Below, in pieces: positions 52,358-64,000 of a DNA stretch of 64,000 nt. Positions within the stretch are counted from its first letter, which is position 1, and the number at the start of each line of letters is the position of its first letter. Made by a program: the position numbers and the translations under genes. The notes under the pieces were generated by a model. It worked only from the letters and a program-made list of their open reading frames with translations, was not told where the DNA came from and ran no database searches. The DNA comes from Escherichia phage phiP4: the sequence record PP993145.1, one strand, 5' to 3'.

Positions 52358-52365
52358 ATGAATTT

Positions 52366-53021: not shown

Positions 53022-53037
53022 AACGTTTCCTTAAAGT

Positions 53038-53113
53038 TGGAGCGGCTAGAGGGAATCGAACCCTACTCAGCGAGGCTTGGAAGGCCTGCGACACAACCCG
53101 TGTGCTTAACCGC
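53038..53113 (-). tRNA. tRNA-Gly (anticodon TCC)
   Basis: 76 nt, T-loop TTCGATT, anticodon loop CTTCCAA, CCA encoded. Confidence 0.6.
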
Positions 53114-53121
53114 TTATTATT

Positions 53122-53197
53122 TGGCTGGAGAAGGAGGAATCGAACCTACCATTAACGGAGTCAAAGGCCGTTGTGCTAACCGTTACACTACTCTCCA
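53122..53197 (-). tRNA. tRNA-Gln (anticodon TTG)
   Basis: 76 nt, loop CTTTGAC, acceptor TGGAGAG/TTCTCCA. Confidence 0.65.
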
Positions 53198-53203
53198 ATT
53201 GTT

Positions 53204-53279
53204 TGGCTGGGATGCCACGGATCGAACGTGGAACCTTCGGAGTCAGAGGCCGACGATCTGCCAATTGATCTACATCCCA
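53204..53279 (-). tRNA. tRNA-Gln (anticodon CTG)
   Basis: 76 nt, loop CTCTGAC, acceptor TGGGATG/CATCCCA. Confidence 0.65.
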
Positions 53280-53288
53280 AGAATGCTA

Positions 53289-53525
53289 TTAGCTAGATGC
53301 TGTTTCTACTGGCTGAGAAACAGCAGGCTGTTCTAACGTATCTGGTGCTGATACAGAGAAAAGAGCTTGTAATGCTGCAATATCACGCTCGTAAGTATCA
53401 ATACGAGTAGTAAGAGTATCTACCATCTGTTTATGGTAGGATAAGTTATTCTGAGATTCATCTCGAAGAGTTTGCAGTTCTGCAAGACGTGTTAACATAA
53501 TTTCACTAATTAAAGCATTACTCAT
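53289..53525 (-). CDS. hypothetical coiled-coil protein, 78 aa
   Basis: ORF. Confidence 0.35.
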   Translation of the reverse strand: MSNALISEIMLTRLAELQTLRDESQNNLSYHKQMVDTLTTRIDTYERDIAALQALFSVSAPDTLEQPAVSQPVETASS

Positions 53526-53715
53526 TTGTTTCTCCTAAGTTTTCCTGTTCTTCTAAACGTTTGCCTTCATGATCTACTCGAATAACTCCGCATCCTTCGC
53601 AAATCACAACTGCACCATAACCTTCTTTGACCTCAGCTTCTGTAATCAAACCAGAAAGATCACCAGTATCTCTGCCCCACATATCAATGGAGCATTGTTT
53701 GCAGAAATCAGCCAT
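53518..53715 (-). CDS. hypothetical zinc-ribbon-like protein, 65 aa
   Basis: CxxC...CxxC pairs. Confidence 0.35.
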   Translation of the reverse strand: MADFCKQCSIDMWGRDTGDLSGLITEAEVKEGYGAVVICEGCGVIRVDHEGKRLEEQENLGETNE

Positions 53716-53740
53716 ATTTTATTTCCTATTTAAGTTAATT

Positions 53741-53817
53741 TGGGGTGGCTAGTGGAATTCGAATCCACATAGGCCTGATTCACAATCAGGATCATTAACC
53801 AATTATGATATAGCCAC
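53741..53817 (-). tRNA. tRNA-His (anticodon GTG)
   Basis: Stem CCTGA/TCAGG loop TTGTGAA, acceptor GTGGCTA/TAGCCAC, discriminator C. Confidence 0.75.
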
Positions 53818-54380
53818 AATTGAAAACTCGCAGGGTTAGCGAAACCTTCCTCAATTAGCATGTTCTAGAATACTAATCAAGTTATCTCCTATTGCACGCA
53901 GCTCAAGACGAGTACGAATTTTCAATTGTGGCGGCTCTCAGAAACTCTTCTACTCTAGCTTTAGCAGCTTACTCCCGAACGCATGTCGGGGAAGTCTTAC
54001 CAAGAGCATCAAATAGCACCGTTACACTTTGAGCCATAGATGTATCAAGAAGCAGAAGGATTTGAACCTTCACGAGATAGACCAGTTATCTCAGCCGCTT
54101 TATGAGGTATGTTGCAGGGAGTGGATGTTCCCTATAAACCTTTTAGGCAGCCCCGTCTACCGATTCCGGCATACTTCAAGAATTTTTTATAAACCAGCAG
54201 AAGCCTCATTTAAAGCATCAACAATAGCTTCACGTTGGGTCATTCCATACCCGGTGGAATCTAGGTGTGGCAAATAAGCCATCCATCCCTTATCTGTTTC
54301 ATGAAGACATGCTTTAAATTTTTTACCATCCTTCATTGTTACAGTAACTGTTTTGCTCATAAGATTTCCTTATAGTTAAT

Positions 54381-54470
54381 TGGCAGAAGATAATGGAGTC
54401 GAACCATCACCGTATCGCTACAGCGGGCTGGTTTTCAAGACCAGTTACGTACCACTACGTCCTATCTTCT
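54381..54470 (-). tRNA. tRNA-Ser (anticodon TGA), class II
   Basis: 90 nt, stem CTGGT/ACCAG loop CTTGAAA, long variable arm. Confidence 0.7.
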
Positions 54471-54483
54471 AGTATTTATTATA

Positions 54484-54831
54484 CTAATAGTCACTCGTAC
54501 TAGTGAAGTTTTCTACTTTTCCACAGATTTTACAAGTCCTACGATGATAGTAGGTAATTTTTACTTTAGACCAGCCATCGTGATCATTACCTAGGTTTTC
54601 TGTTACTCCCCAAGTATGAGAACACTCATTTTCAATTTGCTTAGTAAGAGCGTTATAGCGAGTATAAAACTCCTCCTGAGCAATAGCAAATTCTTTCTGT
54701 AGTTTATCACGAGCAATAATAGCACGTTCCAGATATGTTAAATCAGGCATTCCAGCTTTTTCAGCAACATCTATAATCTTATCTTCATCTAAAGATGCTA
54801 AAAACTCTAGAGCTTTATCTTTTGTTAGCAT
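54484..54831 (-). CDS. hypothetical protein with C-terminal CxxC pair, 115 aa
   Basis: ORF. Confidence 0.4.
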   Translation of the reverse strand: MLTKDKALEFLASLDEDKIIDVAEKAGMPDLTYLERAIIARDKLQKEFAIAQEEFYTRYNALTKQIENECSHTWGVTENLGNDHDGWSKVKITYYHRRTCKICGKVENFTSTSDY

Positions 54832-54850
54832 TATTATTACCTCAAGTGTT

Positions 54851-54941
54851 TGGCGGAAGAGGAGAGATTTGAACTCTCAAGCCGTTTTACCAGTCAGCCA
54901 CTTTCCAAGCGGTTTTCGTCACCAATTCGATTTGCTCTTCC
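54851..54941 (-). tRNA. tRNA-Ser (anticodon GGA), class II
   Basis: 91 nt, T-arm GAGAG-TTCAAAT-CTCTC, loop TTGGAAA. Confidence 0.6.
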
Positions 54942-55043
54942 AATAATAAGATGATGCCTCTATCACACCAGGCAGTTACGCCTCGCTGGGATTCGAACCC
55001 ATTAAAACAGCTCAACCGAGATAGTAGGTTTAATTTACTCTGA

Positions 55044-55120
55044 CCATCAAATTTGGTGCGTGACAAGGGATTCGAACCCTCAAAACCCGACTTCTAAGGA
55101 CGGTATGTATGCCAATTCCA
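55044..55120 (-). tRNA. tRNA with anticodon TAG (Leu codon CUA) but class I short variable loop
   Basis: 77 nt, acceptor GCGTGAT/GTCACGC, A73, loop CTTAGAA, 5-nt variable GTTTT; covaries with tRNA at 59288. Confidence 0.55.
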
Positions 55121-55135
55121 TCAATCACGCATATT

Positions 55136-55214
55136 TGGTGGAGAATAACGGAATCGAACCGTTCTGATGTCCTCGGTGCAAGCGAGGTGTCCACTCCATG
55201 CAGACCCATTCCCC
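55136..55214 (-). tRNA. tRNA-Ala (anticodon TGC) with G3:U70
   Basis: Stem CCTCG/CGAGG loop CTTGCAC; G3-U70 wobble in acceptor. Confidence 0.75.
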
Positions 55215-55229
55215 AAATTCTTTAGTTTA

Positions 55230-55411
55230 CTAAGGCTATTAGCTCGGCGTAACTACAGCACCTTCGCTTCGAGCGGAAGGAACTGCGTCATCTCGCAAAC
55301 CCAATACACTATTCAGTTGCCGCTGAATCTAGTGGACCAATCTAGAACTTCTCCCGAATCAGGGGGATCGTGCTTTTTGGCAGCCAGTCCTAGGTCGAGC
55401 TAATACCTTAG
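55230..55411 (-). ncRNA. candidate structured small RNA closed by a 16-bp terminal helix
   Basis: 55230-55246 pairs with 55396-55411 (one bulge); internal hairpins; promoter at 55453-55481 on same strand; no credible ORF. Confidence 0.4.
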
Positions 55412-55452
55412 TGAACTATGATGAGGATTTCTCCTCATCAATTTATATAAAT

Positions 55453-55481
55453 ATTATAACAAGAAATTAAGCATCAAGCAA
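55453..55481 (-). promoter_or_regulatory. sigma70 early promoter (TTGCTT-17-TATAAT) upstream of ncRNA candidate
   Basis: Hexamers read on minus strand. Confidence 0.55.
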
Positions 55482-55500
55482 CTGCGTTTTTTCTTGAAAT

Positions 55501-55579
55501 TGGTAGATCGCCTGGGACTCGAACCCAGAACCTTCCGATTAAAAGTCGGATGCTACTAAACCTATTGAGCTAGCGATCT
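55501..55579 (-). tRNA. tRNA-Lys (anticodon TTT)
   Basis: Stem TCCGA/TCGGA loop CTTTTAA, acceptor AGATCGC/GCGATCT. Confidence 0.7.
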
Positions 55580-55768
55580 ATTAGTAACCATTATACACTT
55601 CTTTAATAGAGTGGACTTTTAAGTAAGGGTGATTAGTACTAAACTCTACCATTACTTCATCCCAATTTTTACCATAATGAGCAAGTAAGGATTTTGATGT
55701 ATTCTTACCTAATCGTTTATCACTTACTACTAATCGAAATACTTTCATTTCGAAATCCTCTATTAAAA

Positions 55769-55846
55769 TGGAAGCGGGTGCAGGAATCGAACCTACCTCT
55801 TTCTAGCTTATGAGACTAGCGATCTCTACCAGAGATCTAACCCGCG
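55769..55846 (-). tRNA. tRNA-Met (anticodon CAT), C1-U72 mismatch
   Basis: Loop CTCATAA, acceptor CGCGGGT/ACCCGCT with unpaired 1-72. Confidence 0.6.
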
Positions 55847-55852
55847 ATTATT

Positions 55853-55928
55853 TGGTCAGTGCGGCAGGACTCGAACCTGCGACCCGAAGCATCCAAGGCT
55901 CCCACGCTACCAACTGCGCTACGCACTG
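55853..55928 (-). tRNA. tRNA-Pro (anticodon TGG)
   Basis: 76 nt, loop CTTGGAT, acceptor CAGTGCG/CGCACTG. Confidence 0.7.
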
Positions 55929-55959
55929 TTAATTTTTGTTAACTCACTTTATAAGATAT

Positions 55960-55988
55960 ATTATACAGAGAATTAAGCAGAATAGCAA
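55960..55988 (-). promoter_or_regulatory. sigma70 promoter (TTGCTA-17-TATAAT) driving tRNA-Pro/Met unit
   Basis: Hexamers read on minus strand immediately upstream of tRNA-Pro. Confidence 0.55.
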
Positions 55989-56380
55989 ATGAATTTTTAA
56001 TAAATTTACTTATTGTGTAGGCCACCTAGAGGCTATGAACCCCACGGCTGACAAAGAAGTTTGCGAGACTTCTCTTAAATGCCAGAATAGACCCGCCGAT
56101 CTATCGGAACCTACATAATAAGTAAACTTTATAGTGTCATTCTAGACAGGACTCGAACCTGTTATCACTTGTGCGGACTTACGAGAACCATTCTTTCACT
56201 CGAATCGAACGAGCTTCTGCCCTCGCCAAGCTGGTTTCCCCATCAACCACGCTAGAATGTTTGATTGTTTTCAGTGCAAGAGTCCGAGTCTTGGACACGA
56301 CCGCTTCGCAAGTACATAGGCAGCTTATCATGAGTCAGCACTTCCGAATTGCTAGCTCCGTGTTCTGCACTGAAATTTTA

Positions 56381-56728
56381 TTAGTTTAACCGTAAAGTAT
56401 TATCTACTTCACCATTAATTGTTCGGCATTCTTCTGGGATTGCCGGGGTAGCCTTATATTCCCACCACTCAGCACCATCATATTCCCCACGTTCTAACCA
56501 AGTTCCATCGGCAAACCATACATTACCATAAAGTAATTGTCCACCGTATCCAGAATCATATTCAAAGTCTAGGTTATTAAGAAAATCCTCAATATCTTCT
56601 TCTGTATAACCTAAAGGTAATACCCAAACTTTTTTATCCCCATAATACCCGAATTCTATTTTAATACACTTAACTTCAGAATTAGTATTTTTTAAGGCAA
56701 GTAACAACTCTTCTTTAGCATTACGCAT
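56381..56728 (-). CDS. hypothetical protein, 115 aa
   Basis: ORF. Confidence 0.4.
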   Translation of the reverse strand: MRNAKEELLLALKNTNSEVKCIKIEFGYYGDKKVWVLPLGYTEEDIEDFLNNLDFEYDSGYGGQLLYGNVWFADGTWLERGEYDGAEWWEYKATPAIPEECRTINGEVDNTLRLN

Positions 56729-56753
56729 AATATATTCTCATACTGAATTAATT

Positions 56754-56830
56754 TGGCGCGACCGATGGGATTCGAACCCACATTCTCTCCCGTGACAGGG
56801 GAGTACCATTACCAAGCCAGCCCCGGTCGC
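56754..56830 (-). tRNA. tRNA-Asp (anticodon GTC)
   Basis: Stem CTCCC/GGGAG loop CTGTCAC, acceptor GCGACCG/CGGTCGC. Confidence 0.75.
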
Positions 56831-56839
56831 ATGATCTGT

Positions 56840-57025
56840 TTATTCAGCTTTGAGTTTTTCAATAGCTGCATTAAGTTCTTTAAGAAACTCTTTTCGTACA
56901 TTAAGACGATTGAGACTTACTAGTATATCATGTTTAAGTTCTTCGATGTATTTCTTCTCAACTTCAATATTGTTGATAGTGCTATCACGATGAACTTCTA
57001 ACTGTGCAATTACATTCTTGGACAT
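56840..57025 (-). CDS. hypothetical coiled-coil protein, 61 aa
   Basis: ORF. Confidence 0.3.
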   Translation of the reverse strand: MSKNVIAQLEVHRDSTINNIEVEKKYIEELKHDILVSLNRLNVRKEFLKELNAAIEKLKAE

Positions 57026-57126
57026 GCTTATTTCCTCAGTTATTAATGAAAATGGTATCTGTGGCTGAATTCGATGTCAGCAATGATAGCTGGTTGGCTA
57101 CCGGTTTACTTAACTCTACACAGAAT

Positions 57127-57209
57127 TTGGCGGGCCGTGTAGGATTCGAACCTACGTTGTCTTTCGACATGGATTAACAGTCCACCGCCAAACCGCTTGG
57201 CTAACGACC
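57127..57209 (-). tRNA. tRNA-Asn-like (anticodon GTT), 83 nt with 13-nt GNRA-capped variable arm
   Basis: Anticodon arm GGACTGTTAATCC as in E. coli tRNA-Asn, G73, Ser/Tyr-like D-arm AGCCAAGCGGTTTGGC, variable GTC-GAAA-GAC. Confidence 0.5.
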
Positions 57210-57362
57210 CTAAATTTATATTGCTGACTAGGATTTTCACCTAGACGGAGTTAGCACCGTAGCGTGTAGCGGCATACCTCTCCAAACCGTGCCTCATCTT
57301 TCAATTACGGAGACAGTGTTCCTACGCGTGCCTGAATTGATTTAACAATTCTTTCAGCAAAT

Positions 57363-57438
57363 TGGACGACCGCATGAGATTTGAACTCACATAAAAAGGA
57401 TTTGCAATCCTTCGCCTAAGCCATTCAGCCAACGGTCG
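57363..57438 (-). tRNA. tRNA-Cys (anticodon GCA)
   Basis: Stem AAGGA/TCCTT loop TTGCAAA. Confidence 0.7.
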
Positions 57439-57505
57439 ATTTATTATCTTTCATAACGTGCAGCTACATGGTCGGAACCACAACACTTAAATCTAACTAA
57501 TCGTT

Positions 57506-57748
57506 TCATTTAACACGCTCCGGTAGATCTTCTAGTTTATATTCAGTAGCCACATTAGCAGCATCTAAAAGTAATCCCATGTGTTTAAGGATTTTAGTGA
57601 TAGATTCGCCTTTGGCTTCTTCTACGAAAGAACGTAGATGAACAAAGTCAATTCCACCGTCCATACCAGAGAAAATATTTAGTAAGCGAAGCATTACCAG
57701 CTTACGTTCATTCAATTCTTGTTCTGTCATGTTGCTTCTCCAGTTCAA
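57506..57748 (-). CDS. hypothetical protein, 80 aa
   Basis: ORF behind promoter 57760-57788. Confidence 0.4.
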   Translation of the reverse strand: MNWRSNMTEQELNERKLVMLRLLNIFSGMDGGIDFVHLRSFVEEAKGESITKILKHMGLLLDAANVATEYKLEDLPERVK

Positions 57749-57759
57749 TTTATATAATT

Positions 57760-57788
57760 ATTATACAGAACTTTTGGAAACTAAGCAA
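57760..57788 (-). promoter_or_regulatory. sigma70 early promoter (TTGCTT-17-TATAAT)
   Basis: Hexamers read on minus strand. Confidence 0.55.
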
Positions 57789-58068
57789 CTACATTTTTTA
57801 AGAATTTGATGCCTTTCTTTTTCTTCTTATATTTCCACGTTAAGGGATTCTGTCGATTATGAACGCTTGAGATCTTCGTCTCGTCAAAGTTCTTCAATAT
57901 CATGTAATCACAAGATAATTGTTCTAGTGGAATGTGATCACCGTCAAAAGCGTATACATAAGGCTGTTGACTAGCACGATAATGATAGACTTTGTTAATT
58001 CTACGTTTCAGCGACTTATCCGCGCAGTAAATAAAGAAGTTTTCAGGATGCATCAGCAGCTCCTTCAA
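57781..58068 (-). CDS. hypothetical protein, 95 aa
   Basis: ORF. Confidence 0.35.
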   Translation of the reverse strand: MKELLMHPENFFIYCADKSLKRRINKVYHYRASQQPYVYAFDGDHIPLEQLSCDYMILKNFDETKISSVHNRQNPLTWKYKKKKKGIKFLKNVVA

Positions 58069-58135
58069 TTTGGTGCACCCTGTTCGTATCGAACGAACCT
58101 CTCAAGCTCTTCAGGCAAGCGCTAATCCATCTCAG
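58061..58135 (-). tRNA. tRNA-Phe (anticodon GAA), U-U mismatches in anticodon stem
   Basis: 75 nt, D-stem GCTG/TAGC, loop CTGAAGA. Confidence 0.5.
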
Positions 58136-58142
58136 CTAAAGG

Positions 58143-58219
58143 TGCAAATTTTTGGCAAACCTACTAGGACTCGAACCTAGACCGTACGGTTTTGGAGACC
58201 GACATGCTGTCCAGTAACA
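58143..58219 (-). tRNA. tRNA-Trp (anticodon CCA), two U-U mismatches in acceptor stem
   Basis: Loop CTCCAAA as in E. coli tRNA-Trp; T-arm CTAGG-TTCGAGT-CCTAG. Confidence 0.5.
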
Positions 58220-58227
58220 CTCTAGGA

Positions 58228-58304
58228 ATGCAGGAATTGGCGTCCTGTGAGGGGATCGAACCCGCAAATCCTACCTTGAAAGGGTAGTGACTTTACCAGT
58301 TTGT
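58228..58304 (-). tRNA. tRNA-Glu (anticodon TTC)
   Basis: Stem CTACC/GGTAG loop CTTTCAA, acceptor GTCCTGT/ACAGGAC. Confidence 0.7.
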
Positions 58305-58310
58305 CTAACA

Positions 58311-58398
58311 GGACTTAAATTGGTGGGGAAAGATGGAGTCGAACCACCCGAGTCGCAATGACAACTGATTTACAGTCAGCTCTGCTACCACTTACAGA
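58311..58398 (-). tRNA. tRNA-Tyr (anticodon GTA), class II
   Basis: 88 nt, loop CTGTAAA, long variable arm, acceptor GGGGAAA/TTTCCCC. Confidence 0.7.
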
Positions 58399-58539
58399 AT
58401 ATTTCCCCATATTTAGAAGTATTCAAAAAATTCTCATTTAAACACTTTTAAATATGTTTCCAAATTAGATAAATATTATATCAAGTTTTATAGCACTGAG
58501 CAAGTCAAATTTTAAAGAACTTGCTCAGTGCTGTATTAG

Positions 58540-58815
58540 TTAGTCGAACTTAGGAGTGACAGTTAAGGAGAATGGAAGTTCGAAAACTTCTTCACCCTCA
58601 TCACTAACAGTAATTACACGACCTTTAAGTTCAGACATTGAAATATCAATATCAGCTTTTGCATCTGGAGCCATGCCAGCTTCAACACATTTAGCTTTAA
58701 TTTCCGGTAGAAGTTCTACATCGTAGAAATAAAGCCATTCAATCTCACCTTCCCAGCCTTCCCAGGATTTACAGATTGCACTTTCAATACCAGCTGCTAT
58801 AACACGATTTTGCAT
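58540..58815 (-). CDS. hypothetical acidic protein, 91 aa
   Basis: ORF behind promoter 58845-58874. Confidence 0.4.
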   Translation of the reverse strand: MQNRVIAAGIESAICKSWEGWEGEIEWLYFYDVELLPEIKAKCVEAGMAPDAKADIDISMSELKGRVITVSDEGEEVFELPFSLTVTPKFD

Positions 58816-58844
58816 TCGTTAACTCCTCCATCAATTTATATAAC

Positions 58845-58874
58845 TATTATACCAGAAATTTAAAGCAAAAGGCA
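58845..58874 (-). promoter_or_regulatory. sigma70 early promoter (TTGCCT-18-TATAAT)
   Basis: Hexamers read on minus strand. Confidence 0.45.
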
Positions 58875-58905
58875 AGTACATTTTTAAAAATTCTGTTTGG
58901 AAGAG

Positions 58906-59112
58906 CTAAACTCCAGACTCTTCAGCCAAGTCTAGACTAATAAGAGATATAGCCATAATTGCTGCTCCATGTTCTTTTTCTCCAGTTTCTTTAGCTAGAG
59001 TTATAATATCAAGAAATTGCTTATGAAAATCTGCAACCTCTTGAGTTAAACCCGCCTCAGCAATCATACCTTTAAGCATGAAACGTTGTGCGGTAATTTC
59101 AGGATTAGCCAT
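58906..59112 (-). CDS. hypothetical protein, 68 aa
   Basis: ORF. Confidence 0.35.
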   Translation of the reverse strand: MANPEITAQRFMLKGMIAEAGLTQEVADFHKQFLDIITLAKETGEKEHGAAIMAISLISLDLAEESGV

Positions 59113-59287
59113 GTTGTTTCTCCAGTTTCATCTTTAATAGTCTACAAATAAAATCAATGTCTTCATCCGTGCCTAGATCTCTATCTTCAAGAGTTGCCTT
59201 GAAGTTTTTAGTCAATTCCATGAGAATAACTTCTCTAGAACGACGTGTTGGCGGAGGTGGATGTCTATACATCTTATTTCCTTAATT

Positions 59288-59364
59288 TGGTAGGGGTGGT
59301 GGGATTCGAACCCACAAAACCTGAATTTTAAGTCCAGTACCTATGCCAATTCGATTACACCCCC
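59288..59364 (-). tRNA. tRNA with anticodon TAA (Leu codon UUA/UUG) but class I short variable loop
   Basis: 77 nt, loop CTTAAAA, A73, variable GTTTT; compensatory changes vs tRNA at 55044 support the fold. Confidence 0.55.
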
Positions 59365-59465
59365 ATGTAATCAGTTTATTAGTTGATACATATTATAGCC
59401 TAGTGAAAATCCTACTACTAATCCCACAAACCAACCAATATAATAATCTTTTAGTTTCACAGGTA

Positions 59466-59651
59466 TTATCCTCGTTCAATATCTAGGGAAATACCGCAGT
59501 TAGGATTAATACCTGTACCATTGCAATTTGCGCAAACCCAGATATTGCAAAAAGTATCTCCTGCTTCTGCATCAGAACTTTCACCAATTCCCCTACACTC
59601 AGGGCAGGCACATTCCTCTAGCTCTTGCTTGAGTTCTTGAAACTTGGACAT
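59466..59651 (-). CDS. zinc-ribbon protein, 61 aa
   Basis: CPEC...CANC Cys pairs. Confidence 0.4.
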   Translation of the reverse strand: MSKFQELKQELEECACPECRGIGESSDAEAGDTFCNIWVCANCNGTGINPNCGISLDIERG

Positions 59652-59659
59652 ATAGTCTC

Positions 59660-59848
59660 CTAGTTAATTACTTTTGAGGCTTCTAAAGCATTGACGTAGT
59701 AAACATCTTCTACATTATACATATAGTCTACTACTTTGTCCATAGCATGGAGTTCAGATGTAGCCTTTACTAGTCTGTACCCTTGCTTAAACTCGTCCGA
59801 ATGTTCTCTATCTTGTGCAAATTTAACAGAAACTATGAATAATTCCAT
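59660..59848 (-). CDS. hypothetical protein, 62 aa
   Basis: ORF. Confidence 0.35.
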   Translation of the reverse strand: MELFIVSVKFAQDREHSDEFKQGYRLVKATSELHAMDKVVDYMYNVEDVYYVNALEASKVIN

Positions 59849-59867
59849 TAGTTGTCCTTATTTAATT

Positions 59868-59945
59868 TGGTGGCTCCCCGAGGATTCGAACCTACGTACC
59901 TTCCGGTTATGAGCCGGGTGCTCATACCATATGAGCTTGAGAACC
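59868..59945 (-). tRNA. tRNA-Met (anticodon CAT), initiator-like anticodon arm
   Basis: CCCGG-CTCATAA-CCGGAAGG resembles E. coli tRNA-fMet. Confidence 0.6.
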
Positions 59946-59951
59946 AAAATC

Positions 59952-60040
59952 TGGCGGAAGAAGTGGGAATCGAACCCACAAGGCTATATTTCAAGCCGAC
60001 AGATTAGCAATCTGCTGCAATACCGTTATGCTATTCTTCC
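59952..60040 (-). tRNA. tRNA-Ser (anticodon GCT), class II
   Basis: 89 nt, loop TTGCTAA, variable arm GGCT...AGCC. Confidence 0.65.
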
Positions 60041-60055
60041 GAATTTATAAGATAT

Positions 60056-60084
60056 ATTATATTAGAAATTTAGCTTCATAGCAA
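60056..60084 (-). promoter_or_regulatory. sigma70 promoter (TTGCTA-17-TATAAT) driving tRNA-Ser/Met unit
   Basis: Hexamers read on minus strand upstream of tRNA-Ser(GCT). Confidence 0.55.
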
Positions 60085-60580
60085 GAAAATTTTTCAAGTT
60101 TTCGGTAGACATCTCATCCACATCTACAGGAGAAACAAAGCCGTTTAATTTTCTAGCAAATTTTTCACCTGCAGGGTCATTATCCCCGACAGCTACCAAT
60201 TTAAAAGGTAATAATTTCAGTTGCTTTAATAACGCTTTTCCTGGAGAAGAACCCAACATTGCCAGGGCTGGATAACCAGCGTTATGTAACGCAACTGCCT
60301 TAAATACAGATTCAGCAATCAATACTACTTTTTCATCTCCATTGAGAGTTTCTAGTCCCCATACACACTGGATAGTAGAATAAGTAAAATATTTAGCTTC
60401 AAATGGGCACTTACCATGACCTTTTGGAGCAGAAGGATTATACGTCTGATAGCCTCTCAACATCCCAGAGAAGTCATACAACGGGACTGTTAGCCATCCT
60501 TCCGGACTTAACCAGCAATGATATTTATCTGTATCAAATCCTCTAGATAAGAGGTGCTGTGTTAGCTCATCAACATTCAT
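60062..60580 (-). CDS. Toprim-domain protein (putative), 172 aa
   Basis: IAESVF (Glu) and GDNDPAGEK (DxD) motifs; start moved to internal Met with GAGAGAGG RBS because promoter lies inside ORF-track N-terminus. Confidence 0.4.
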   Translation of the reverse strand: MNVDELTQHLLSRGFDTDKYHCWLSPEGWLTVPLYDFSGMLRGYQTYNPSAPKGHGKCPFEAKYFTYSTIQCVWGLETLNGDEKVVLIAESVFKAVALHNAGYPALAMLGSSPGKALLKQLKLLPFKLVAVGDNDPAGEKFARKLNGFVSPVDVDEMSTENLKNFLAMKLNF

Positions 60581-60610
60581 ATTTGGTTCCTCTCTCAAAT
60601 TTATAGATAT

Positions 60611-60639
60611 ATTATACAGAGAATTTAGCATTCAAGCAA
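60611..60639 (-). promoter_or_regulatory. sigma70 early promoter (TTGCTT-17-TATAAT)
   Basis: Hexamers read on minus strand. Confidence 0.55.
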
Positions 60640-60755
60640 TCAAATTTTTTAACTTTTTAGAGGAAAATCATATGGCACTTAAGGGTAGCAGATAAGTGGT
60701 GAGGACCAAAATTTGTGACCCCACTAAAAATCCGGGGGTAATTTTTAAAGACCCC

Positions 60756-60784
60756 TTGACATTTTCTCGGGGGTAGTGTAAAGT
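60756..60784 (+). promoter_or_regulatory. sigma70 promoter (TTGACA-17-TAAAGT) for plus-strand operon
   Basis: Hexamers read on plus strand upstream of 60847 start. Confidence 0.5.
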
Positions 60785-60846
60785 ATACGTTATGGATGAG
60801 TGATCAAAGAGACACACATTTTCTATATACTAGGAGGTGTCAAAAA

Positions 60847-61833
60847 ATGACAGAAGAAGTAGCTAAGAGTCCTGAGACCGTCGCTAGCGTTGCAGCAGAA
60901 CTGCACCGTCACGAGGAATCGGATAAGAAAAAGTGGGAGAAGGTCAGAGCCTACGAAGAGAAACATCGCGAACACGACGATGAAGAAGATGACGATGATG
61001 AACATTGTCATAAATATGGAAAACATAAAATGCAAGAACCAGTAAACGTATTCACTAGTGGCTTCCCTGGCCTACTGGGTGGTTACCCAGCAAACGCAGG
61101 TGCTTTCGGTGGTGAAGGTATGGGACTATTCGGAGCTATCCTAATCGGTGCTCTATTAACAGGCGGATTCGGTGGTTTCGGTGGATTCGGTGGACGTGGT
61201 GTAGTTGGTGATGGTACCGCAGTTGATGCAGTACTTCAGAACCAAGATACCGCTAGTATTCTAGCAGCTATTAACACTACTCGTACAGAAGCTAACCAGG
61301 GTACTGGAGCTGTTTTAAGCGCAGTTAACAATGGTTTTAGCCAGACATCCCAAAACCAGAGCCGTGATACTCAGTCTGTACTAACTACGATCTATGGTAC
61401 AGGTGCTAATCTGTCTAATCAGATCTGCCAGGAAACTCGCAACGTTATTCAGGGTCAGTTCGATCTTTCTCGCCAGATTGATCAATCTTTCGCAGCTAAC
61501 CAGATAGCTCGTGCACAAGATAAGTTTGATTCTGCACAGATCGCTTTCCAGCAGACTTTACAAACTAATAACCAGTTTGCCGCTGTTCAGGCTCAGATGT
61601 GTGCTAACCAGAACTCTCTGGAACGTCAGATCGCTGAATGTTGCTGTGAACTTCAGACTGCGATCGCTGGTGTAACTACTGCGCGTATCCAGGATGAGTT
61701 AGACGCATGTCGCCTACGTGAAGCAATCGCTGCTGGTAGCGGTGCTAACGGTCAGGTAATTAATCAAATCGCTTTAAGTCTTGGTGCTATCACTCAGACT
61801 CTGGCTGGTCTGCAGGCTAAACTGCCGGCTTAA
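60847..61833 (+). CDS. membrane protein with glycine-zipper TM segment and Gln/Asn-rich helical domain, 328 aa
   Basis: AGGAGG RBS before ATG 60847; GLFGAILIGALLTGGFGGFGGFGG; acidic N-terminus. Confidence 0.5.
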   Translation: MTEEVAKSPETVASVAAELHRHEESDKKKWEKVRAYEEKHREHDDEEDDDDEHCHKYGKHKMQEPVNVFTSGFPGLLGGYPANAGAFGGEGMGLFGAILIGALLTGGFGGFGGFGGRGVVGDGTAVDAVLQNQDTASILAAINTTRTEANQGTGAVLSAVNNGFSQTSQNQSRDTQSVLTTIYGTGANLSNQICQETRNVIQGQFDLSRQIDQSFAANQIARAQDKFDSAQIAFQQTLQTNNQFAAVQAQMCANQNSLERQIAECCCELQTAIAGVTTARIQDELDACRLREAIAAGSGANGQVINQIALSLGAITQTLAGLQAKLPA

Positions 61834-61854
61834 TATTAAGGGGAGGAGCCCATT

Positions 61855-62259
61855 ATGAGTAAATATGGTTTTGTAAATAACGGACTTAATCAAAGTATGG
61901 GCTCCCAGCAGCCCATGCCGGGTCTGGATAACCCCTACTTACAACAGTTGCAACAGCGTTTAGCAGAAGCGCAACAGATGCAGCAACAACTCCAGCAAAA
62001 CCCTGGAAGTGTGAGTCCTATGCAAATGATGCAGCAAATGAGCGGGCAGTCGCAAATGCCTCAACAAATGCAGCAACAGGTGCCGCAGCAGCAAACCCAA
62101 CAACCGCAGGTTTCTGCGGAAGGACAGGCAGTACTAGCCCTTTTCGAAGACTTCGCAAAGACAGAGGATGGGAAACAGCTTGTATCACTTATGGGTAAGT
62201 TTAATAGCTTCTGCCAAAGCCAAGTTGCAAAAGCTCAAAATGGTGGTAATAACTCCTAA
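61855..62259 (+). CDS. Gln-rich low-complexity protein, 134 aa
   Basis: GGAGG RBS; QQ-rich repeats. Confidence 0.45.
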   Translation: MSKYGFVNNGLNQSMGSQQPMPGLDNPYLQQLQQRLAEAQQMQQQLQQNPGSVSPMQMMQQMSGQSQMPQQMQQQVPQQQTQQPQVSAEGQAVLALFEDFAKTEDGKQLVSLMGKFNSFCQSQVAKAQNGGNNS

Positions 62260-62268
62260 GGAGGAATT

Positions 62269-62463
62269 ATGTGTTGCAGAAAATCTGTTTCGTGCTGCCC
62301 AATGCCTGTAACACGTTGTTGCTCTCCAGCAATGTTTACGCAAATACCGGCGTTCAATCCGTTTGCCTTTAAACCTATTCTTATCCTGCCCCCTAGAGTA
62401 GATTTTCAGTCAAGATTGGCCTCCCGTATGGGTGGTTGCTGTACACCGAGAGTGTGGTTCTAA
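62269..62463 (+). CDS. Cys-rich small protein, 64 aa
   Basis: Four CC doublets; RBS AAGGAGG upstream. Confidence 0.4.
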   Translation: MCCRKSVSCCPMPVTRCCSPAMFTQIPAFNPFAFKPILILPPRVDFQSRLASRMGGCCTPRVWF

Positions 62464-62475
62464 ACCAAAAAACAA

Positions 62476-62510
62476 AAGCCCCTGCCGAAAGGTAAGGGGC
62501 TTTTTCTTTT
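62476..62510 (+). terminator. intrinsic terminator of plus-strand operon
   Basis: agcccct...aggggct hairpin followed by T-run. Confidence 0.65.
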
Positions 62511-62520
62511 GCCTTAAATA

Positions 62521-62554
62521 CAGAAAAGCCCGCGCTCTCGGAGGAAACGCGGGC
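62521..62554 (-). terminator. intrinsic terminator after SPFH gene
   Basis: gcccgcg...cgcgggc hairpin plus U-run on minus strand. Confidence 0.6.
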
Positions 62555-62579
62555 TTGGTTCGAAGATTACGTGTAACTA

Positions 62580-63527
62580 TTACTTGTTACGCATATCCAT
62601 GATCATTTGACCATCGTAGCCAGTACCTACCACAGTCTGAGGCACACCACCTTGATACTTCTGAGCACGAATCATTTCAACTTCCAGTTGCTTCCAGCGA
62701 ATCATCTCAGGAGTAATGGTACGTTGCAATGCGGCGTTAGCTTCAGCTTCTTTTTTAGCTGCGTACAGTTTAGCATCTGCGTCACGTTCGTTAGCAATAG
62801 CCTGGTTATTACGGGCTTCACGGTCTGCTTCTGCCTGTTTAACTTTTTGCTGTGCTTCTTGTTCAACACGAGCCAACTCAGCTTTTGCAGCATTAACTTG
62901 CTCTTCACGAACTTTGGTATTCTGTACCTGTTCCATGATTACTGGTGGCAGAGTAATATCCTGAAGGAATACCTGCTTAACTGTGTAACCATATGGGCGT
63001 GCATACTCTTCAACTTCTTGTTGAATTGCAGTTTGCAATTGAGCCTGAATTTTAGCATCAAACAAATCTTGTGCTTTAGGTACAGACTTACCAAACTCAC
63101 GAATAGTAGACAGTAATTTTTCAGTTACATATTTGTCTAACGCTTGATCCTGAGTACCCGCATTAATACGGTTAATCGGTGCCTTAGAACCATCAAACTG
63201 CAACATAACAGTCAGGTCAACAGTGGATTTAAACTTATCCTGGCTAGGAACCTGAAGTTTATCTAATTTTACAGCAATATCTTTTGTACTAAAAGTATCG
63301 AAAGATGCAAATGGGTTTACAAGATGGAAACCCGGTAATACTGGGTTAGGATCTACTTTACCCAGAAATGTTTGGGTTTTAACCGTACCATCAGAAACAA
63401 TAGTATATGAATTAAAGGCTAGAATCAAGCCTGCTAAACCAACTACAGCACCAATACCCCAACGTTTAATAGTACGAATTACTTTCTGCTCAGAAGTCAG
63501 TTCTTTCATATTTTTAGTATTAAACAT
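62580..63527 (-). CDS. SPFH/band-7 (stomatin/HflK-like) membrane protein, 315 aa
   Basis: N-terminal TM helix, central domain, C-terminal Ala/Glu/Lys/Gln coiled coil typical of SPFH proteins. Confidence 0.55.
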   Translation of the reverse strand: MFNTKNMKELTSEQKVIRTIKRWGIGAVVGLAGLILAFNSYTIVSDGTVKTQTFLGKVDPNPVLPGFHLVNPFASFDTFSTKDIAVKLDKLQVPSQDKFKSTVDLTVMLQFDGSKAPINRINAGTQDQALDKYVTEKLLSTIREFGKSVPKAQDLFDAKIQAQLQTAIQQEVEEYARPYGYTVKQVFLQDITLPPVIMEQVQNTKVREEQVNAAKAELARVEQEAQQKVKQAEADREARNNQAIANERDADAKLYAAKKEAEANAALQRTITPEMIRWKQLEVEMIRAQKYQGGVPQTVVGTGYDGQMIMDMRNK

Positions 63528-63561
63528 ATATTTCCTTTGTTTTAGTTACAGTTAATAAAAT

Positions 63562-63636
63562 TGGCCGAGGTGACAGGATTCGAACCTGCATAAAGGAATT
63601 TAGAAGACTCCTGCCTCTCCCTTAGACTACACCCCG
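63562..63636 (-). tRNA. tRNA-Arg (anticodon TCT)
   Basis: 75 nt, stem GGAGT/ATTCC loop CTTCTAA, acceptor CGGGGTG/CACCTCG. Confidence 0.65.
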
Positions 63637-64000
63637 TTTAAGTATTTTTAAGAACTCTCGTAAAAACTCTTAAAAATACAGACGATACCGGGAGAGTCAT
63701 AAGTCTCACTCATTAAGTATTTCAAGACAAAATACAGTAACGTCTATTATTTTCCAGTTTAAGTCAAGGTGACTTAGTGGTTATGTCCTGCGGTATATTG
63801 AGGACTCGGTTAGGCTTGGGGTCATGACTTCCCGCCTTTTGCTGCTACTCAACAGGAGTTATCGCGAATTACCTGTGCTATTGTGCACCATTAGTGACAT
63901 CTCTCATGTCAGCATTTCCCACTTTGTGGATAGCTTGAAAAACTACTCCGATATGGAGAAAGAACTTCACTATCCTAGAATACCTTCTAAAGTTCTTCTT

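What the first reader, a model, noticed from the sequence alone, without database searches (positions are those of the whole stretch)
60756..63636. Convergent locus: SPFH/band-7 membrane protein facing a plus-strand operon of glycine-zipper, Gln-rich and Cys-rich proteins
Three plus-strand genes with their own TTGACA promoter and terminator converge on a minus-strand SPFH-family gene. Plus-strand genes are rare in this genome and the GC content is locally higher. SPFH proteins scaffold membrane microdomains and regulate FtsH-type proteases; the partner with a GxxxG-rich TM helix and Q/N-rich domain is unrecognised. It could be a membrane-remodelling, superinfection-exclusion or anti-defence module.
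Basis: inference. Interest (0 to 1): 0.6.

Follow-up and report, generated by a model that had tools for sequence, protein, structure and literature searches.

The report
Mobile membrane-protein cassette beside SPFH gene
In this T5-like phage, a self-contained, horizontally mobile three-gene unit (a membrane-anchored helical-rod protein with two small partners, all of unknown function) sits tail-to-tail with an unrelated, widely conserved phage SPFH (prohibitin-like) gene; both are real, but they are two independent units, not one module.

Summary
Three plus-strand genes (A 60847-61833, B 61855-62259, C 62269-62463) have their own TTGACA promoter and hairpin terminator. They converge on a minus-strand gene (62580-63527) that is a clear SPFH/Band_7 protein. 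The region has the highest GC in the window.

The "module" reading does not hold.
- A-B-C is a clean 1.86-kb insertion/deletion. About half of T5-like phages lack it but keep the SPFH gene.
- The same A-B-C trio occurs without any SPFH gene in a distant T5-like phage, in Pseudomonas phage KPP23 and in a lambdoid phage.
- The SPFH protein occurs without A-B-C in hundreds of T5-like and T4-like phages.

A belongs to a large unannotated phage family (661 cluster representatives). Its members are found in T5-like, crAss-like and Firmicutes phages. The family has a glycine-rich hydrophobic anchor, a roughly 200-residue Q/N-rich helical rod and a near-invariant CCC motif. B and C occur only alongside the proteobacterial A subfamily.

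The function is not known. My best inference is an early-expressed accessory ("moron") cassette that builds an inner-membrane-anchored rod complex acting at the envelope, with superinfection exclusion the likeliest role. Spanin and virion roles are disfavoured. Interest is moderate.

The parts
60670..62524 (.). Extent of the insertion/deletion that carries the whole A-B-C cassette
   Evidence: blastn of phage DT57C against the window: homology ends at 60669 and resumes at 62525, with 67 nt in DT57C in place of 1,855 bp here. GC is 0.463 against a window mean of 0.391.
60756..60784 (+). Sigma-70-type promoter TTGACA-17-TAAAGT (equivalent to 'P12' in the T5 record)
   Evidence: 10/12 matches. 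The T5 record AY543070 annotates promoter P12 upstream of T5.077. The same core is present in the distant relative L009.
60832..60837 (+). Shine-Dalgarno AGGAGG, 9 nt before the ATG of gene A
   Evidence: Sequence read directly.
60847..61833 (+). Gene A (T5.077 homologue), 328 aa. It has an acidic, His-rich N-terminal domain with a helix at residues 12-45, a glycine-rich hydrophobic anchor at about residues 92-117, and a Q/N-rich helical rod at residues 125-325 with CCC at 265-267.
   Evidence: phrog_8119 E=3e-204. Homologue searches. AlphaFold2 with 102 sequences gives pLDDT 72 and one helix spanning 175-325. CCC is present in 94/102 relatives.
61855..62259 (+). Gene B (T5.078 homologue), 134 aa. 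It has a conserved N-terminal helix (PYLQQLQQRLAEAQ), a variable Q/P-rich linker and a conserved C-terminal domain (LFEEFAKTEDGKQLV..GKFNSFCQS).
   Evidence: phrog_7894 E=4e-76. Alignment across four phage lineages. The family is found only next to A.
62269..62463 (+). Gene C (unnamed third CDS in the T5 record), 64 aa, cysteine-rich (MCC..SCCPMPVTRCC..GGCC).
   Evidence: A 64-aa ORF is kept in all T5-like loci examined, and tblastn finds it in 25/25 T5-like loci that carry A. Differences fall mostly on third codon positions (26/37/68), and it is the frame with the fewest stop codons (only the terminal stop, against 2-4 in the other two forward frames). A small Cys-rich ORF follows B in L009, L010/KPP23 and L013, and L013 shares the CCPMPVxRCC motif.
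62474..62510 (+). Intrinsic terminator of the cassette (hairpin plus UUUUUCUUUU)
   Evidence: Fold dG -21.4 kcal/mol, z -3.4. Annotated as a terminator in BB1 and T5. Equivalent hairpins follow C in L009 and L013.
62516..62556 (-). Intrinsic terminator of the SPFH transcription unit. Its stem contains the GCGC nick-site consensus that the T5 record annotates.
   Evidence: 12-bp stem, 7 GC pairs. Fold dG -20.7 kcal/mol, z -4.0. It is retained in DT57C, which lacks the cassette. Nick annotation in T5.
62580..63527 (-). SPFH/Band_7 protein (T5.080 homologue), 315 aa. It has a basic N-terminus, one TM segment (about residues 24-41), an SPFH domain (52-225) and an Ala/Glu/Lys-rich C-terminal helical region. 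This is an independent unit and not part of the cassette.
   Evidence: Pfam PF01145 E=2e-17. PDB QmcA and prohibitins. Present in 725 phage records, including T4-like phages. It contains no cysteine, so the 'lipoprotein' label of phrog_200 cannot be right (sequence).
63562..63636 (-). tRNA-Arg(UCU), immediately upstream of the SPFH gene in the same minus-strand unit
   Evidence: ARAGORN. Rfam tRNA 49.3 bits. T5 annotation gives P16-17 -> rnaX -> tRNA-Arg -> T5.080.

Best explanation
Two independent units lie back to back.

(1) Genes A-B-C with their own promoter and terminator form a 1.86-kb autonomous accessory cassette, a 'moron'. It was acquired horizontally and is dispensable for T5-like phages. 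This step is shown.

The consensus sigma-70 promoter should be read by unmodified host RNA polymerase, so expression is probably early. This step is inferred.

A inserts into the inner membrane through its glycine-rich hydrophobic segment. Its roughly 200-residue Q/N-rich helix (about 22-30 nm, with hendecad periodicity) assembles into an oligomeric rod. The near-invariant CCC row staples the rod or binds metal. This step is inferred from sequence and the AlphaFold model.

B (helix, flexible Q/P linker, small globular domain) and C (Cys-rich mini-protein) have no export signals. They occur only with the A subfamily that carries the extra charged, His-rich N-terminal domain. They most likely dock on that domain on the cytoplasmic side. 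This step is inferred from co-occurrence.

The most likely role is an envelope-level accessory function that protects the infected cell. I favour superinfection exclusion or blocking of incoming DNA or effectors. This is the weakest step, at roughly 0.3 probability on its own.

(2) The SPFH gene is the last gene of a separate minus-strand unit (rnaX, tRNA-Arg, SPFH). It encodes an N-in, periplasm-facing SPFH protein of the HflK/C-prohibitin type. By analogy it forms a membrane cage or microdomain. It is conserved across T5-like and many T4-like phages regardless of the cassette.
For: Autonomy and mobility:
- The promoter, terminator and all three genes lie inside one indel that DT57C and about half of T5-like records lack, while those records keep both flanks.
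- A occurs in 222 phage records and SPFH in 725.
- GC is 0.463 against 0.391, the highest in the window.
- The same A-B-C order occurs in L009 (a distant T5-like phage), in L010/KPP23 (Pseudomonas siphovirus, diverging from the terminase gene) and in L013 (lambdoid, between antiterminator Q and holin/lysozyme/Rz, on the opposite strand). None has an SPFH gene within 5-6 kb.
- All 25 T5-like loci with A also have B and C.

Protein A:
- 661 cluster representatives match at E<=1e-3.
- 94/102 relatives carry CCC. The rod is 21% Q+N and only 13% charged.
- AlphaFold2 gives pLDDT 72 with a single helix spanning 175-325. Hydrophobic periodicity is 3.67.

Accessory position of the family: it lies downstream of the lysis cassette, before the integrase or at the end of the late operon, in Butyrivibrio virus Ceridwen, Dulem virus 33 and bajarodcaudo virus 5.

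Not virion, not spanin: KPP23 virion mass spectrometry found nine proteins, none of them ORF072-074 (PMC4031330). KPP23's spanins are KPP23_008 plus an overlapping ORF (PMC6139136 supplement). B and C have no lipobox or hydrophobic segment.

SPFH.
Against: - No experiment bears on function, and I found no paper on T5.076-T5.080.
- The exclusion role rests only on base rates for membrane-protein morons and on gene position.
- Topology is unresolved, and the clues conflict. The low-charge Q/N-rich rod looks extracytoplasmic. The charged 90-residue N-domain of the T5 type argues for N-in. Across the family, however, basic residues favour the C-terminal flank of the anchor (41 sequences against 7), and a third of members have no K/R in the N-tail. 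That argues for N-out/C-in.
- The family sits at a fixed place in many crAss-like genomes, between the lysis/transcription genes and the virion genes. That could mean a core life-cycle role rather than an accessory one.
- The T5-type cassette is nearly absent from bacterial genomes. There was one distant hit in 185,579 species representatives, and the lambdoid (L013) copy, the only cassette sequence searched there, has no match in 5,426 E. coli genomes. It is therefore not a common lysogenic-conversion element.
- Early timing is inferred from promoter type only.
Confidence: 0.45

Rival explanations
1. One reading: the SPFH protein and the A-B-C proteins work together as one membrane module. 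For example, the SPFH scaffold organises or regulates the glycine-rich protein, or both act on FtsH.
For: They are adjacent and convergent and share a bidirectional terminator region in every T5-like phage that has the cassette (25/25 loci). Both A and SPFH are predicted membrane proteins.
Against: Roughly half of T5-like phages carry SPFH alone. The cassette occurs in L009, L010/KPP23 and L013 with no SPFH gene in the flanks. The SPFH protein is 60-78% identical in T4-like Klebsiella, Enterobacter, Cronobacter and Aeromonas phages that lack the cassette. They are separate transcription units with separate terminators. No A-family context examined elsewhere contains a Band_7 gene.
Confidence: 0.06
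2. Lysis accessory: A is a lysis-related membrane protein. It could be a spanin-like or fusion-like element, or a holin regulator. In this view the glycine-rich segment perturbs membranes at the end of infection.
For: A-family genes lie within 1-2 kb downstream of endolysin and holin genes in crAss-like cr4_1, Butyrivibrio virus Ceridwen, Dulem virus 33 and bajarodcaudo virus 5. In the lambdoid L013 the cassette abuts holin-lysozyme-Rz. The architecture is an anchor plus a long helical rod with cysteines, as in i-spanins. A profile of the family gives weak hits to influenza HA2 and coronavirus S2 heptad regions (E 0.03-0.2). The anchor contains GLFGAI, as does the HA2 fusion peptide (own knowledge).
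Against: The PDB hits are not significant and Foldseek finds nothing. In T5-like phages and KPP23 the cassette is far from the lysis genes. KPP23 and L013 already have canonical spanins. There is no lipoprotein partner. The family also occurs in phages of Gram-positive-type hosts, which need no spanin. The cassette is dispensable in T5-like phages. A position downstream of lysis genes is also the classic moron slot.
Confidence: 0.15
3. Cytoplasm-facing scaffold or metal-binding complex: A is N-out/C-in. The rod, B and C assemble on the cytoplasmic face of the membrane, with cysteine and histidine clusters binding Zn, Cu or Ni. The complex tethers or sequesters a host or phage factor, for example for anti-defence or to organise replication at the membrane, as phi29 p16.7 does.
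For: Positive-inside statistics for the family favour C-in (41 against 7). B and C lack export signals. The median is 7 cysteines per A protein, with an invariant CCC(E). C resembles metallothionein-like peptides (MSCNCGCGG in L013). A proteins of Firmicutes phages end in CGCGC-type tails. His-rich N-domains such as HHYHHHHHEH occur in Epseptimavirus variants.
Against: The rod is very poor in charged residues (13%), unlike typical cytoplasmic coiled coils (the comparison is own knowledge). Exporting the 90-residue charged N-domain of the T5 type without a signal peptide is unusual. There is no homology to any metal-binding family. No PADLOC or other defence-related hit.
Confidence: 0.2
4. Virion component: A is a fibre or spike-like structural protein, as its crAss-like relatives are annotated ('spike protein/glycoprotein', 'outer capsid protein/viral fiber').
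For: Annotations in crAss-like genomes. In crAss-like phages the gene lies just upstream of virion genes (DUF7841, CrAss_Ring_2). The shape is a long helical rod. The rod composition resembles viral fibre and fusion coiled coils.
Against: Those labels trace to weak coiled-coil similarity, not to experiment. KPP23 virion mass spectrometry did not detect A, B or C (PMC4031330). In T5-like phages the cassette lies in the tRNA-gene region (22 tRNA genes from 51549 to 63636), has a sigma-70 promoter and is optional. In siphoviruses of Firmicutes it lies outside the structural module. A strongly hydrophobic anchor is atypical for fibres.
Confidence: 0.06

Closest known systems
Phage 'morons' (autonomous accessory units with their own promoter and terminator, e.g. 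lambda bor/lom, HK97/HK022 morons; own knowledge of Juhala/Hendrix 2000)
   Same: The unit has its own sigma-70 promoter and intrinsic terminator, deviant GC, clean presence/absence between close relatives, and occurrence in unrelated phage backbones, including the Q-to-lysis slot of a lambdoid phage.
   Different: It carries three genes rather than one. It is found mostly in virulent phages (T5-like, KPP23) rather than prophages. The products have no known function.
SPFH family: E. coli HflK/HflC, QmcA; prohibitins
   Same: For the 62580-63527 product: the Band_7 domain passes Pfam's threshold. There is a single N-terminal TM segment and a C-terminal helical region. QmcA and prohibitin are the best solved relatives. 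The basic N-terminus predicts N-in/C-out, as in HflK/C (inference).
   Different: It matches no NCBIfam model at E<=0.01, so no HflK, HflC or QmcA model claims it. No NfeD or FtsH partner gene is adjacent. It forms a phage-specific clade shared by T5-like and T4-like phages. phrog_200 mislabels it as 'lipoprotein', although it contains no cysteine.
PHROGs 8119 / 16490 / 9288 and the crAss-like 'spike protein/glycoprotein' or 'outer capsid protein/viral fiber' genes
   Same: Protein A and its relatives match these profiles (18, 20 and 6 of 27 members). The crAss-like genes are true homologues.
   Different: These groups have no assigned function. The crAss labels are annotation transfers from coiled-coil similarity. 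The T5-type subfamily adds a charged, His-rich N-domain and the partners B and C.
Two-component spanins (lambda Rz/Rz1)
   Same: An inner-membrane anchor plus a long helical region with cysteines. Several relatives lie close to lysis genes.
   Different: There is no outer-membrane lipoprotein partner. The cassette is not in the lysis cassette of T5-like phages or KPP23. Canonical spanins coexist with it in KPP23 and L013. A is twice the usual i-spanin length. The family occurs in phages of Gram-positive-type hosts.
Class I viral fusion proteins (influenza HA2, coronavirus S2 HR1)
   Same: A glycine-rich hydrophobic segment followed by a long Q/N-rich helix. A cluster of weak profile hits points to these proteins.
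   Different: E-values are 0.03-0.2, which is not significant. There is no fold match, no second heptad region and no C-terminal anchor. The periodicity is hendecad rather than heptad. This is a resemblance only.
Phage superinfection-exclusion membrane proteins (T4 Imm/Sp, P22 SieA, T5 Llp, lactococcal Sie2009; own knowledge)
   Same: Small, non-essential, membrane-targeted products expressed from host-type promoters and sitting in variable or moron positions.
   Different: There is no sequence or structural similarity to any of them, and no exclusion phenotype has been tested. A is much larger and has two dedicated partners.

Membership tests
SPFH / Band_7 (62580-63527 product) | SPFH domain above the curated Pfam threshold | tested here: met
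   PF01145 E=2e-17, 64.2 bits against a cut-off of 23.6, residues 52-225. PDB QmcA 1.8e-6, prohibitin-2 8.6e-5.
SPFH / Band_7 (62580-63527 product) | N-terminal membrane anchor followed by a C-terminal helical oligomerisation region | tested here: met
   Read from the sequence: basic residues 1-22, a hydrophobic stretch at about 24-41, and an Ala/Glu/Lys/Gln-rich stretch at 225-290. The PDB alignment to QmcA covers residues 42-266. Oligomeric cage formation is not testable here.
HflK/HflC or QmcA orthologue | Match to a curated NCBIfam model (HflK, HflC, QmcA or any other), and an operon partner (HflK with HflC; QmcA with NfeD/YbbJ) | tested here: not met
   No NCBIfam hit at E<=0.01. The neighbours are tRNA-Arg/rnaX and a terminator, with no second SPFH or NfeD gene adjacent.
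Bacterial lipoprotein (phrog_200 label for the SPFH protein) | Lipobox with an invariant cysteine after a signal peptide | tested here: not met
   The 315-aa protein contains no cysteine (sequence).
Moron (autonomous accessory cassette) | Own promoter and own terminator flanking the genes | tested here: met
   Equivalent terminators follow C in L009 and L013. The promoter core is conserved in L009. Promoter activity itself is not testable here.
Moron (autonomous accessory cassette) | Presence/absence polymorphism between close relatives, deviant base composition, and occurrence in unrelated phages | tested here: met
   The indel 60670-62524 against DT57C. A is present in 222 of about 440 T5-like records. 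GC is in the top 0.8%. The cassette occurs in KPP23, L009 and L013.
Two-component spanin | An i-spanin (TM plus periplasmic coiled coil) paired with an o-spanin lipoprotein gene that is embedded, overlapping or adjacent | tested here: not met
   B and C have no lipobox or signal-like hydrophobic segment. KPP23's spanins are elsewhere, at KPP23_008. L013 has a separate Phage_lysis (Rz) gene.
Class I viral fusion protein | Significant sequence or fold similarity to HA2, S2 or gp41-type trimers, with HR1/HR2 and a C-terminal anchor | tested here: not met
   The best profile hits have E 0.03-0.2. Foldseek finds no match at E<=0.001 in PDB or BFVD. There is no C-terminal hydrophobic segment (sequence).
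Known anti-phage defence proteins (PADLOC) | Match to a defence-system profile | tested here: not met
   No hit for A, B, C or SPFH at E<=0.01.
Gly-anchor/rod/CCC family (unnamed; phrog_8119/16490) | Glycine-rich hydrophobic segment (..GGFGGFGG..), a helical Q/N-rich rod of about 200 residues, and a CCC(E) motif | tested here: met
   Alignments A1, A2 and A5. CCC is present in 94/102 and G110/G112 in more than 90%. The profile search finds 661 representatives.
Superinfection-exclusion protein | Blocks entry or DNA injection of a second phage | not testable with these tools
   This requires infection assays. Only positional and architectural arguments are available.

The most novel reading that the evidence does not exclude
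The glycine-anchor/rod/CCC proteins are a previously unrecognised, pan-phage class of membrane-anchored, cysteine-stapled helical rods. They are shared by Crassvirales, Firmicutes siphoviruses, T5-like, lambdoid and Pseudomonas phages. Each rod spans the cell envelope (about 22-30 nm) and acts as a general entry-blocking or membrane-fusion-like device. The proteobacterial version has recruited two dedicated cytoplasmic partners (B and C) that couple it to metal or redox state.
Probability: 0.12. Interest if true: 0.75.

Novelty: new variant of a known kind. Interest (0 to 1): 0.45.

Why it matters
The practical result is a correction. The locus is not an SPFH-centred module. It is an optional, horizontally mobile three-gene cassette that landed next to a conserved phage SPFH gene.

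The cassette's main protein belongs to a large phage protein family, with at least 661 clusters at 50% identity. The family has no Pfam entry and no assigned function, and it is present in a large share of crAss-like gut phages. A natural knock-out series exists, because T5-like phages occur with and without the cassette, many of them in culture collections such as BASEL. The function is therefore directly testable in E. coli K-12.

If the family turns out to control entry, exclusion or envelope integrity, that result would annotate hundreds of gut-phage genes at once.

The phage SPFH gene is a separate open question. It is shared at 60-78% identity between T5-like and T4-like phages.

Tried and rejected
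- Pfam, NCBIfam and PADLOC scans of A, B and C gave no hits.
- PDB sequence searches with single sequences and with profiles of A and B gave only sub-threshold coiled-coil hits: HA2/spike for A, nothing for B.
- AlphaFold2 with a shallow alignment was poor (pLDDT 52). With 102 sequences it improved (pLDDT 72) but shows only an extended helix.
- Foldseek against PDB and BFVD found nothing significant; the best hit was vimentin at E=2. The afdb50 library was not available.
- The search for related loci with the broad family alignments failed because no conserved 7-10-column stretch exists.
- With the T5-type alignment it found only one distant hit in GTDB genomes and only T5-like phages in IMG/VR.
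- The lambdoid version has no match in complete E. coli genomes.
- Literature searches for T5.076-T5.080, the T5p locus tags, 'T5 + SPFH' and 'SPFH + superinfection exclusion' found nothing relevant.
- The crAss 'spike protein' literature hit concerned unrelated tail spikes.
- I rejected the spanin idea: no lipoprotein partner exists, and canonical spanins are present elsewhere in KPP23 and L013.
- I rejected the 'lipoprotein' label for the SPFH protein because it has no cysteine.
- I rejected the 345-aa ORF start at 60796 in favour of 60847.
- Rfam hits over the terminators (anti-hemB, ctRNA_p42d) are far below gathering scores and reflect hairpins only.
- The downstream genes of A relatives in crAss-like and Firmicutes phages are not homologous to B or C.

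Full report
**What the window is.** The 3.1-kb region matches 441 phage records at 80-99% identity. Nearly all are T5-like phages (Demerecviridae: Tequintavirus, Epseptimavirus) of Escherichia and Salmonella. The locus lies in the tRNA-gene region of the genome, which holds 22 tRNA genes between 51549 and 63636. The genes correspond to T5.076 (a stand-alone Toprim protein, 60062-60631, minus strand), T5.077, T5.078, an unnamed third CDS, and T5.080.

**Checking the observation.**
- The promoter TTGACA-17-TAAAGT lies at 60756-60784. Consensus hits in this stretch are not above chance (6 found, 8.5 expected), so the pattern alone is weak evidence.
- The T5 record annotates 'promoter P12' at the same place. 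The -35/-10 core is also kept in a phage whose A protein is only 36% identical.
- Gene A starts at 60847 behind AGGAGG, not at 60796.
- Back-to-back hairpin terminators fold at -21.4 and -20.7 kcal/mol, with z-scores of -3.4 and -4.0. The T5 record calls the site an efficient bidirectional terminator.
- The minus-strand gene is an SPFH protein. Pfam Band_7 scores 64.2 bits against a cut-off of 23.6. QmcA and prohibitins are the nearest solved structures.
- GC is 0.463 against 0.391 for the window. This is the richest stretch of the whole 64 kb.
- Almost all long ORFs in the window are on the minus strand.

**The third small gene is real.** The 64-aa Cys-rich ORF C is kept in every T5-like locus examined. 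Differences are concentrated at third codon positions, and it is the frame with the fewest stop codons (only its terminal stop). A small Cys-rich ORF directly follows B in three other phage lineages. Most begin MCC; the L013 copy begins MSC. The L013 copy shares the motif CCPMPVxRCC and a C-terminal GGCC with the T5 type. KPP23 and T5 annotate it independently.

**Two units, not one module.** Phage DT57C aligns to the window up to 60669 and again from 62525. It has 67 nt where the window has 1,855 bp. The missing block contains the promoter, A, B, C and the plus-strand terminator. The SPFH gene and its own terminator remain.

The counts across the phage collection tell the same story.
- A is found in 222 records.
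- The SPFH protein is found in 725 records. About 430 of these are T5-like at 90% identity or more.
- Of 443 records matching the region, only 213 cover 80% or more of it.

All 25 T5-like loci with A also have B and C in the same order. Conversely, the A-B-C trio occurs in three other settings.
- A distant T5-like contig, L009, where two other membrane proteins occupy the SPFH position.
- Pseudomonas siphovirus KPP23/RSP and a related contig, L010, next to the terminase gene and diverging from it.
- A lambdoid contig, L013, between the Q antiterminator and holin-lysozyme-Rz, on the opposite strand.

None of these has an SPFH gene within 5-6 kb. Each copy of the trio ends in a hairpin terminator.

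The SPFH protein is 60-78% identical in T4-like Klebsiella, Enterobacter, Cronobacter and Aeromonas phages that lack the cassette. In the T5 record it is the last gene of a separate unit, P16-17 -> rnaX -> tRNA-Arg -> T5.080. The convergent arrangement is therefore an accident of where a mobile cassette inserted.

**Protein A.** It has no Pfam, NCBIfam or PADLOC hit. A word-based search found T5-like homologues down to 36% identity. It also found four distant proteins sharing a GGFGGFGG hydrophobic segment and an invariant CCC. A profile search of 1.84 billion representatives found 661 proteins at E<=1e-3. Most are 250-340 aa.

In a 102-sequence alignment, 94 sequences carry CCC, usually as CCCE. 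The glycines of the anchor are more than 90% conserved. The region after the anchor is 21% Gln+Asn, 21% Ala+Gly and only 13% charged. The median is 7 cysteines per protein.

AlphaFold2 with this alignment gives pLDDT 72. It predicts a confident N-terminal helix (12-45, pLDDT ~95), a disordered acidic/His-rich stretch, the anchor, a helix at 135-169 and one continuous helix at 175-325. Hydrophobic periodicity is 3.67 residues (hendecad) rather than 3.5. Foldseek finds no significant match in PDB or BFVD. A profile search of PDB sequences yields only a cluster of sub-threshold hits to influenza HA2 and coronavirus S2 heptad regions (E 0.03-0.2). This probably explains why crAss-like homologues are annotated 'spike protein/glycoprotein' or 'outer capsid protein/viral fiber'.

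**Where the family lives.**
- In crAss-like phages it sits between the lysis/transcription genes and the virion genes.
- In Butyrivibrio virus Ceridwen, Dulem virus 33 and bajarodcaudo virus 5 it follows the lysis cassette. It lies at the end of the late operon, or just before the integrase. This is the classic slot for accessory genes.
- In these phages A is followed by a conserved 130-150-aa beta-rich protein (phrog_31654 or phrog_20016). That protein is unrelated to B or C.

**Proteins B and C.** B has a conserved N-terminal helix, a variable Q/P-rich linker and a conserved 45-residue C-terminal domain. Single-sequence and profile searches find it only in cassette contexts. B and C have no signal peptide, lipobox or hydrophobic segment. 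They co-occur only with the A subfamily that carries the extra charged, often His-rich N-terminal domain. I infer that they dock on that domain in the cytoplasm.

**Topology is unresolved.**
- The rod's low-charge, Q/N-rich composition looks extracytoplasmic. The charged N-domain of the T5 type also argues for N-in/C-out.
- Across the family, basic residues sit more often on the C-terminal flank of the anchor (41 sequences against 7). A third of members have no Lys or Arg at all in the N-tail. This argues for N-out/C-in.

I keep both readings open and treat the cytoplasm-facing scaffold/metal-binding version as the main rival.

**What it is not.**
- Not a spanin. It has no lipoprotein partner. 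KPP23's spanins are KPP23_008 plus an overlapping ORF (PMC6139136 supplement). L013 has its own Rz gene. The family also occurs in phages of Gram-positive-type hosts.
- Probably not a virion protein. KPP23 virion mass spectrometry identified nine proteins, and none was ORF072-074 (PMC4031330). In T5-like phages the cassette is optional and has a host-type promoter.
- Not a common prophage cargo. There was one distant hit among 185,579 species genomes, and none in 5,426 E. coli genomes for the lambdoid (L013) copy, the only one searched there.
- Not essential, as the natural deletions show.

**Most likely mechanism.** The shown steps are the autonomous unit, horizontal mobility, dispensability, and independence from SPFH. 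The inferred steps follow.
- Host RNA polymerase transcribes the cassette early from P12.
- A anchors in the inner membrane and forms an oligomeric rod of about 22-30 nm. The CCC row staples the rod or binds metal.
- B and C bind the cytoplasmic N-domain.
- The complex serves an accessory envelope-level function.

Given gene position, architecture and base rates for membrane-protein morons, I consider superinfection exclusion or entry blocking the most probable single role, at about 0.3. A cytoplasm-facing scaffold/metal role follows at about 0.2, and a lysis accessory role at about 0.15.

**The SPFH gene.** It has a basic N-terminus, one TM segment, an SPFH domain and a helical C-terminal region. 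By the positive-inside rule it is N-in with the SPFH domain in the periplasm, as for HflK/C (inference). It matches no NCBIfam model at E<=0.01 and has no NfeD or second SPFH partner nearby. The 'lipoprotein' name carried by phrog_200 and several genome records is wrong, because the protein has no cysteine. Its function in phage infection is unknown. By analogy it would form a membrane cage or microdomain, possibly around FtsH-like clients.

**Novelty and score.** All four genes are already in databases as hypothetical proteins, and some records already name the SPFH domain. Four points are new here.
- The cassette and the SPFH gene are independent.
- A-B-C is a mobile three-gene unit present in four phage lineages.
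- The small Cys-rich gene is real.
- A belongs to a large, unnamed, cross-phylum phage family defined by a glycine-rich anchor, a long rod and a CCC motif.

I found no literature on any of these proteins. This is a useful, testable lead rather than a surprising mechanism, and I score interest at 0.45.

Noticed in passing
window 62526-62556 (minus-strand terminator stem; GCGC at about 62536-62541): The T5 record annotates a 'major DNA single-chain interruption' (nick consensus Pu-GCGC) between the two terminators. The same GCGC lies in the stem of the SPFH terminator here, so a genomic nick site may coincide with the terminator hairpin.
   Followed up: partly
window 63637-64000 (continues beyond the window): By homology to T5, this is the 3' part of rnaX, a 719-nt 'stable RNA with unknown functions'. 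It is transcribed from promoter P16-17 ahead of tRNA-Arg and the SPFH gene. Rfam has no family for it.
   Followed up: partly
window 62580-63527; locus L023 3474-4400: The SPFH protein is 74-78% identical in T4-like Klebsiella, Enterobacter and Cronobacter phages, and about 60% identical in Aeromonas phages. This implies exchange between unrelated virulent phage families. In Klebsiella phage Roth27 it lies beside an rI-like 'lysis inhibition protein' and a NadR-like cytidyltransferase. Epseptimaviruses also have a NadR-like gene next to this locus.
   Followed up: partly
window 60062-60631 (-): A stand-alone 189-aa Toprim-domain protein (T5.076; Pfam Toprim_2, phrog_849 'DNA primase') with no primase zinc finger or helicase part. 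It forms the left flank of the cassette insertion site.
   Followed up: no
L003 8926-9345, L012 7783-8169, L011 7670-8125, L020 5631-6050, L021 5716-6135: In crAss-like and Firmicutes phages the A-family gene is followed by a conserved 130-150-aa beta-rich protein (phrog_31654 or phrog_20016, unknown function). This suggests that the family generally works with a small partner, which differs between host groups.
   Followed up: partly
L009 7573-9206 (-): In a distant T5-like contig, the position taken by the SPFH gene in T5 is occupied by two other predicted membrane proteins (190 aa and 353 aa). Neither has a Pfam, NCBIfam or PADLOC hit.
   Followed up: partly
Proteins P0033, P0034, P0043, P0054, P0058 (C-termini) compared with window 62269-62463: A-family proteins from Firmicutes-type phages end in Pro/Cys-rich tails (e.g. 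PNPYTGCCNQYSNCGCGCNG). These resemble the separate Cys-rich protein C of the proteobacterial cassette in composition, so C may be a detached equivalent of that tail. The similarity is compositional only and was not statistically testable.
   Followed up: no
window 59466-59651 (-): A small 61-aa protein with DnaJ-like CxxCxGxG zinc-finger repeats, annotated 'antitermination protein Q(-like)' in relatives. The label looks like an over-interpretation.
   Followed up: no
window 60847-61833 compared with L015, L017, L019, L041: Among T5-like phages, A varies much more (73-100% identity) than the neighbouring SPFH protein (91-100%) or C (88-97%). The variation includes His-rich insertions (HHYHHHHHEH) in the N-domain of Epseptimavirus variants.
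   Followed up: partly
window 62470-62559: Weak Rfam hits (anti-hemB 29 bits against a cut-off of 49.5; ctRNA_p42d 24.5 against 50) fall on the two terminator hairpins. They are best read as chance matches to hairpin-plus-U-tract shapes.
   Followed up: yes
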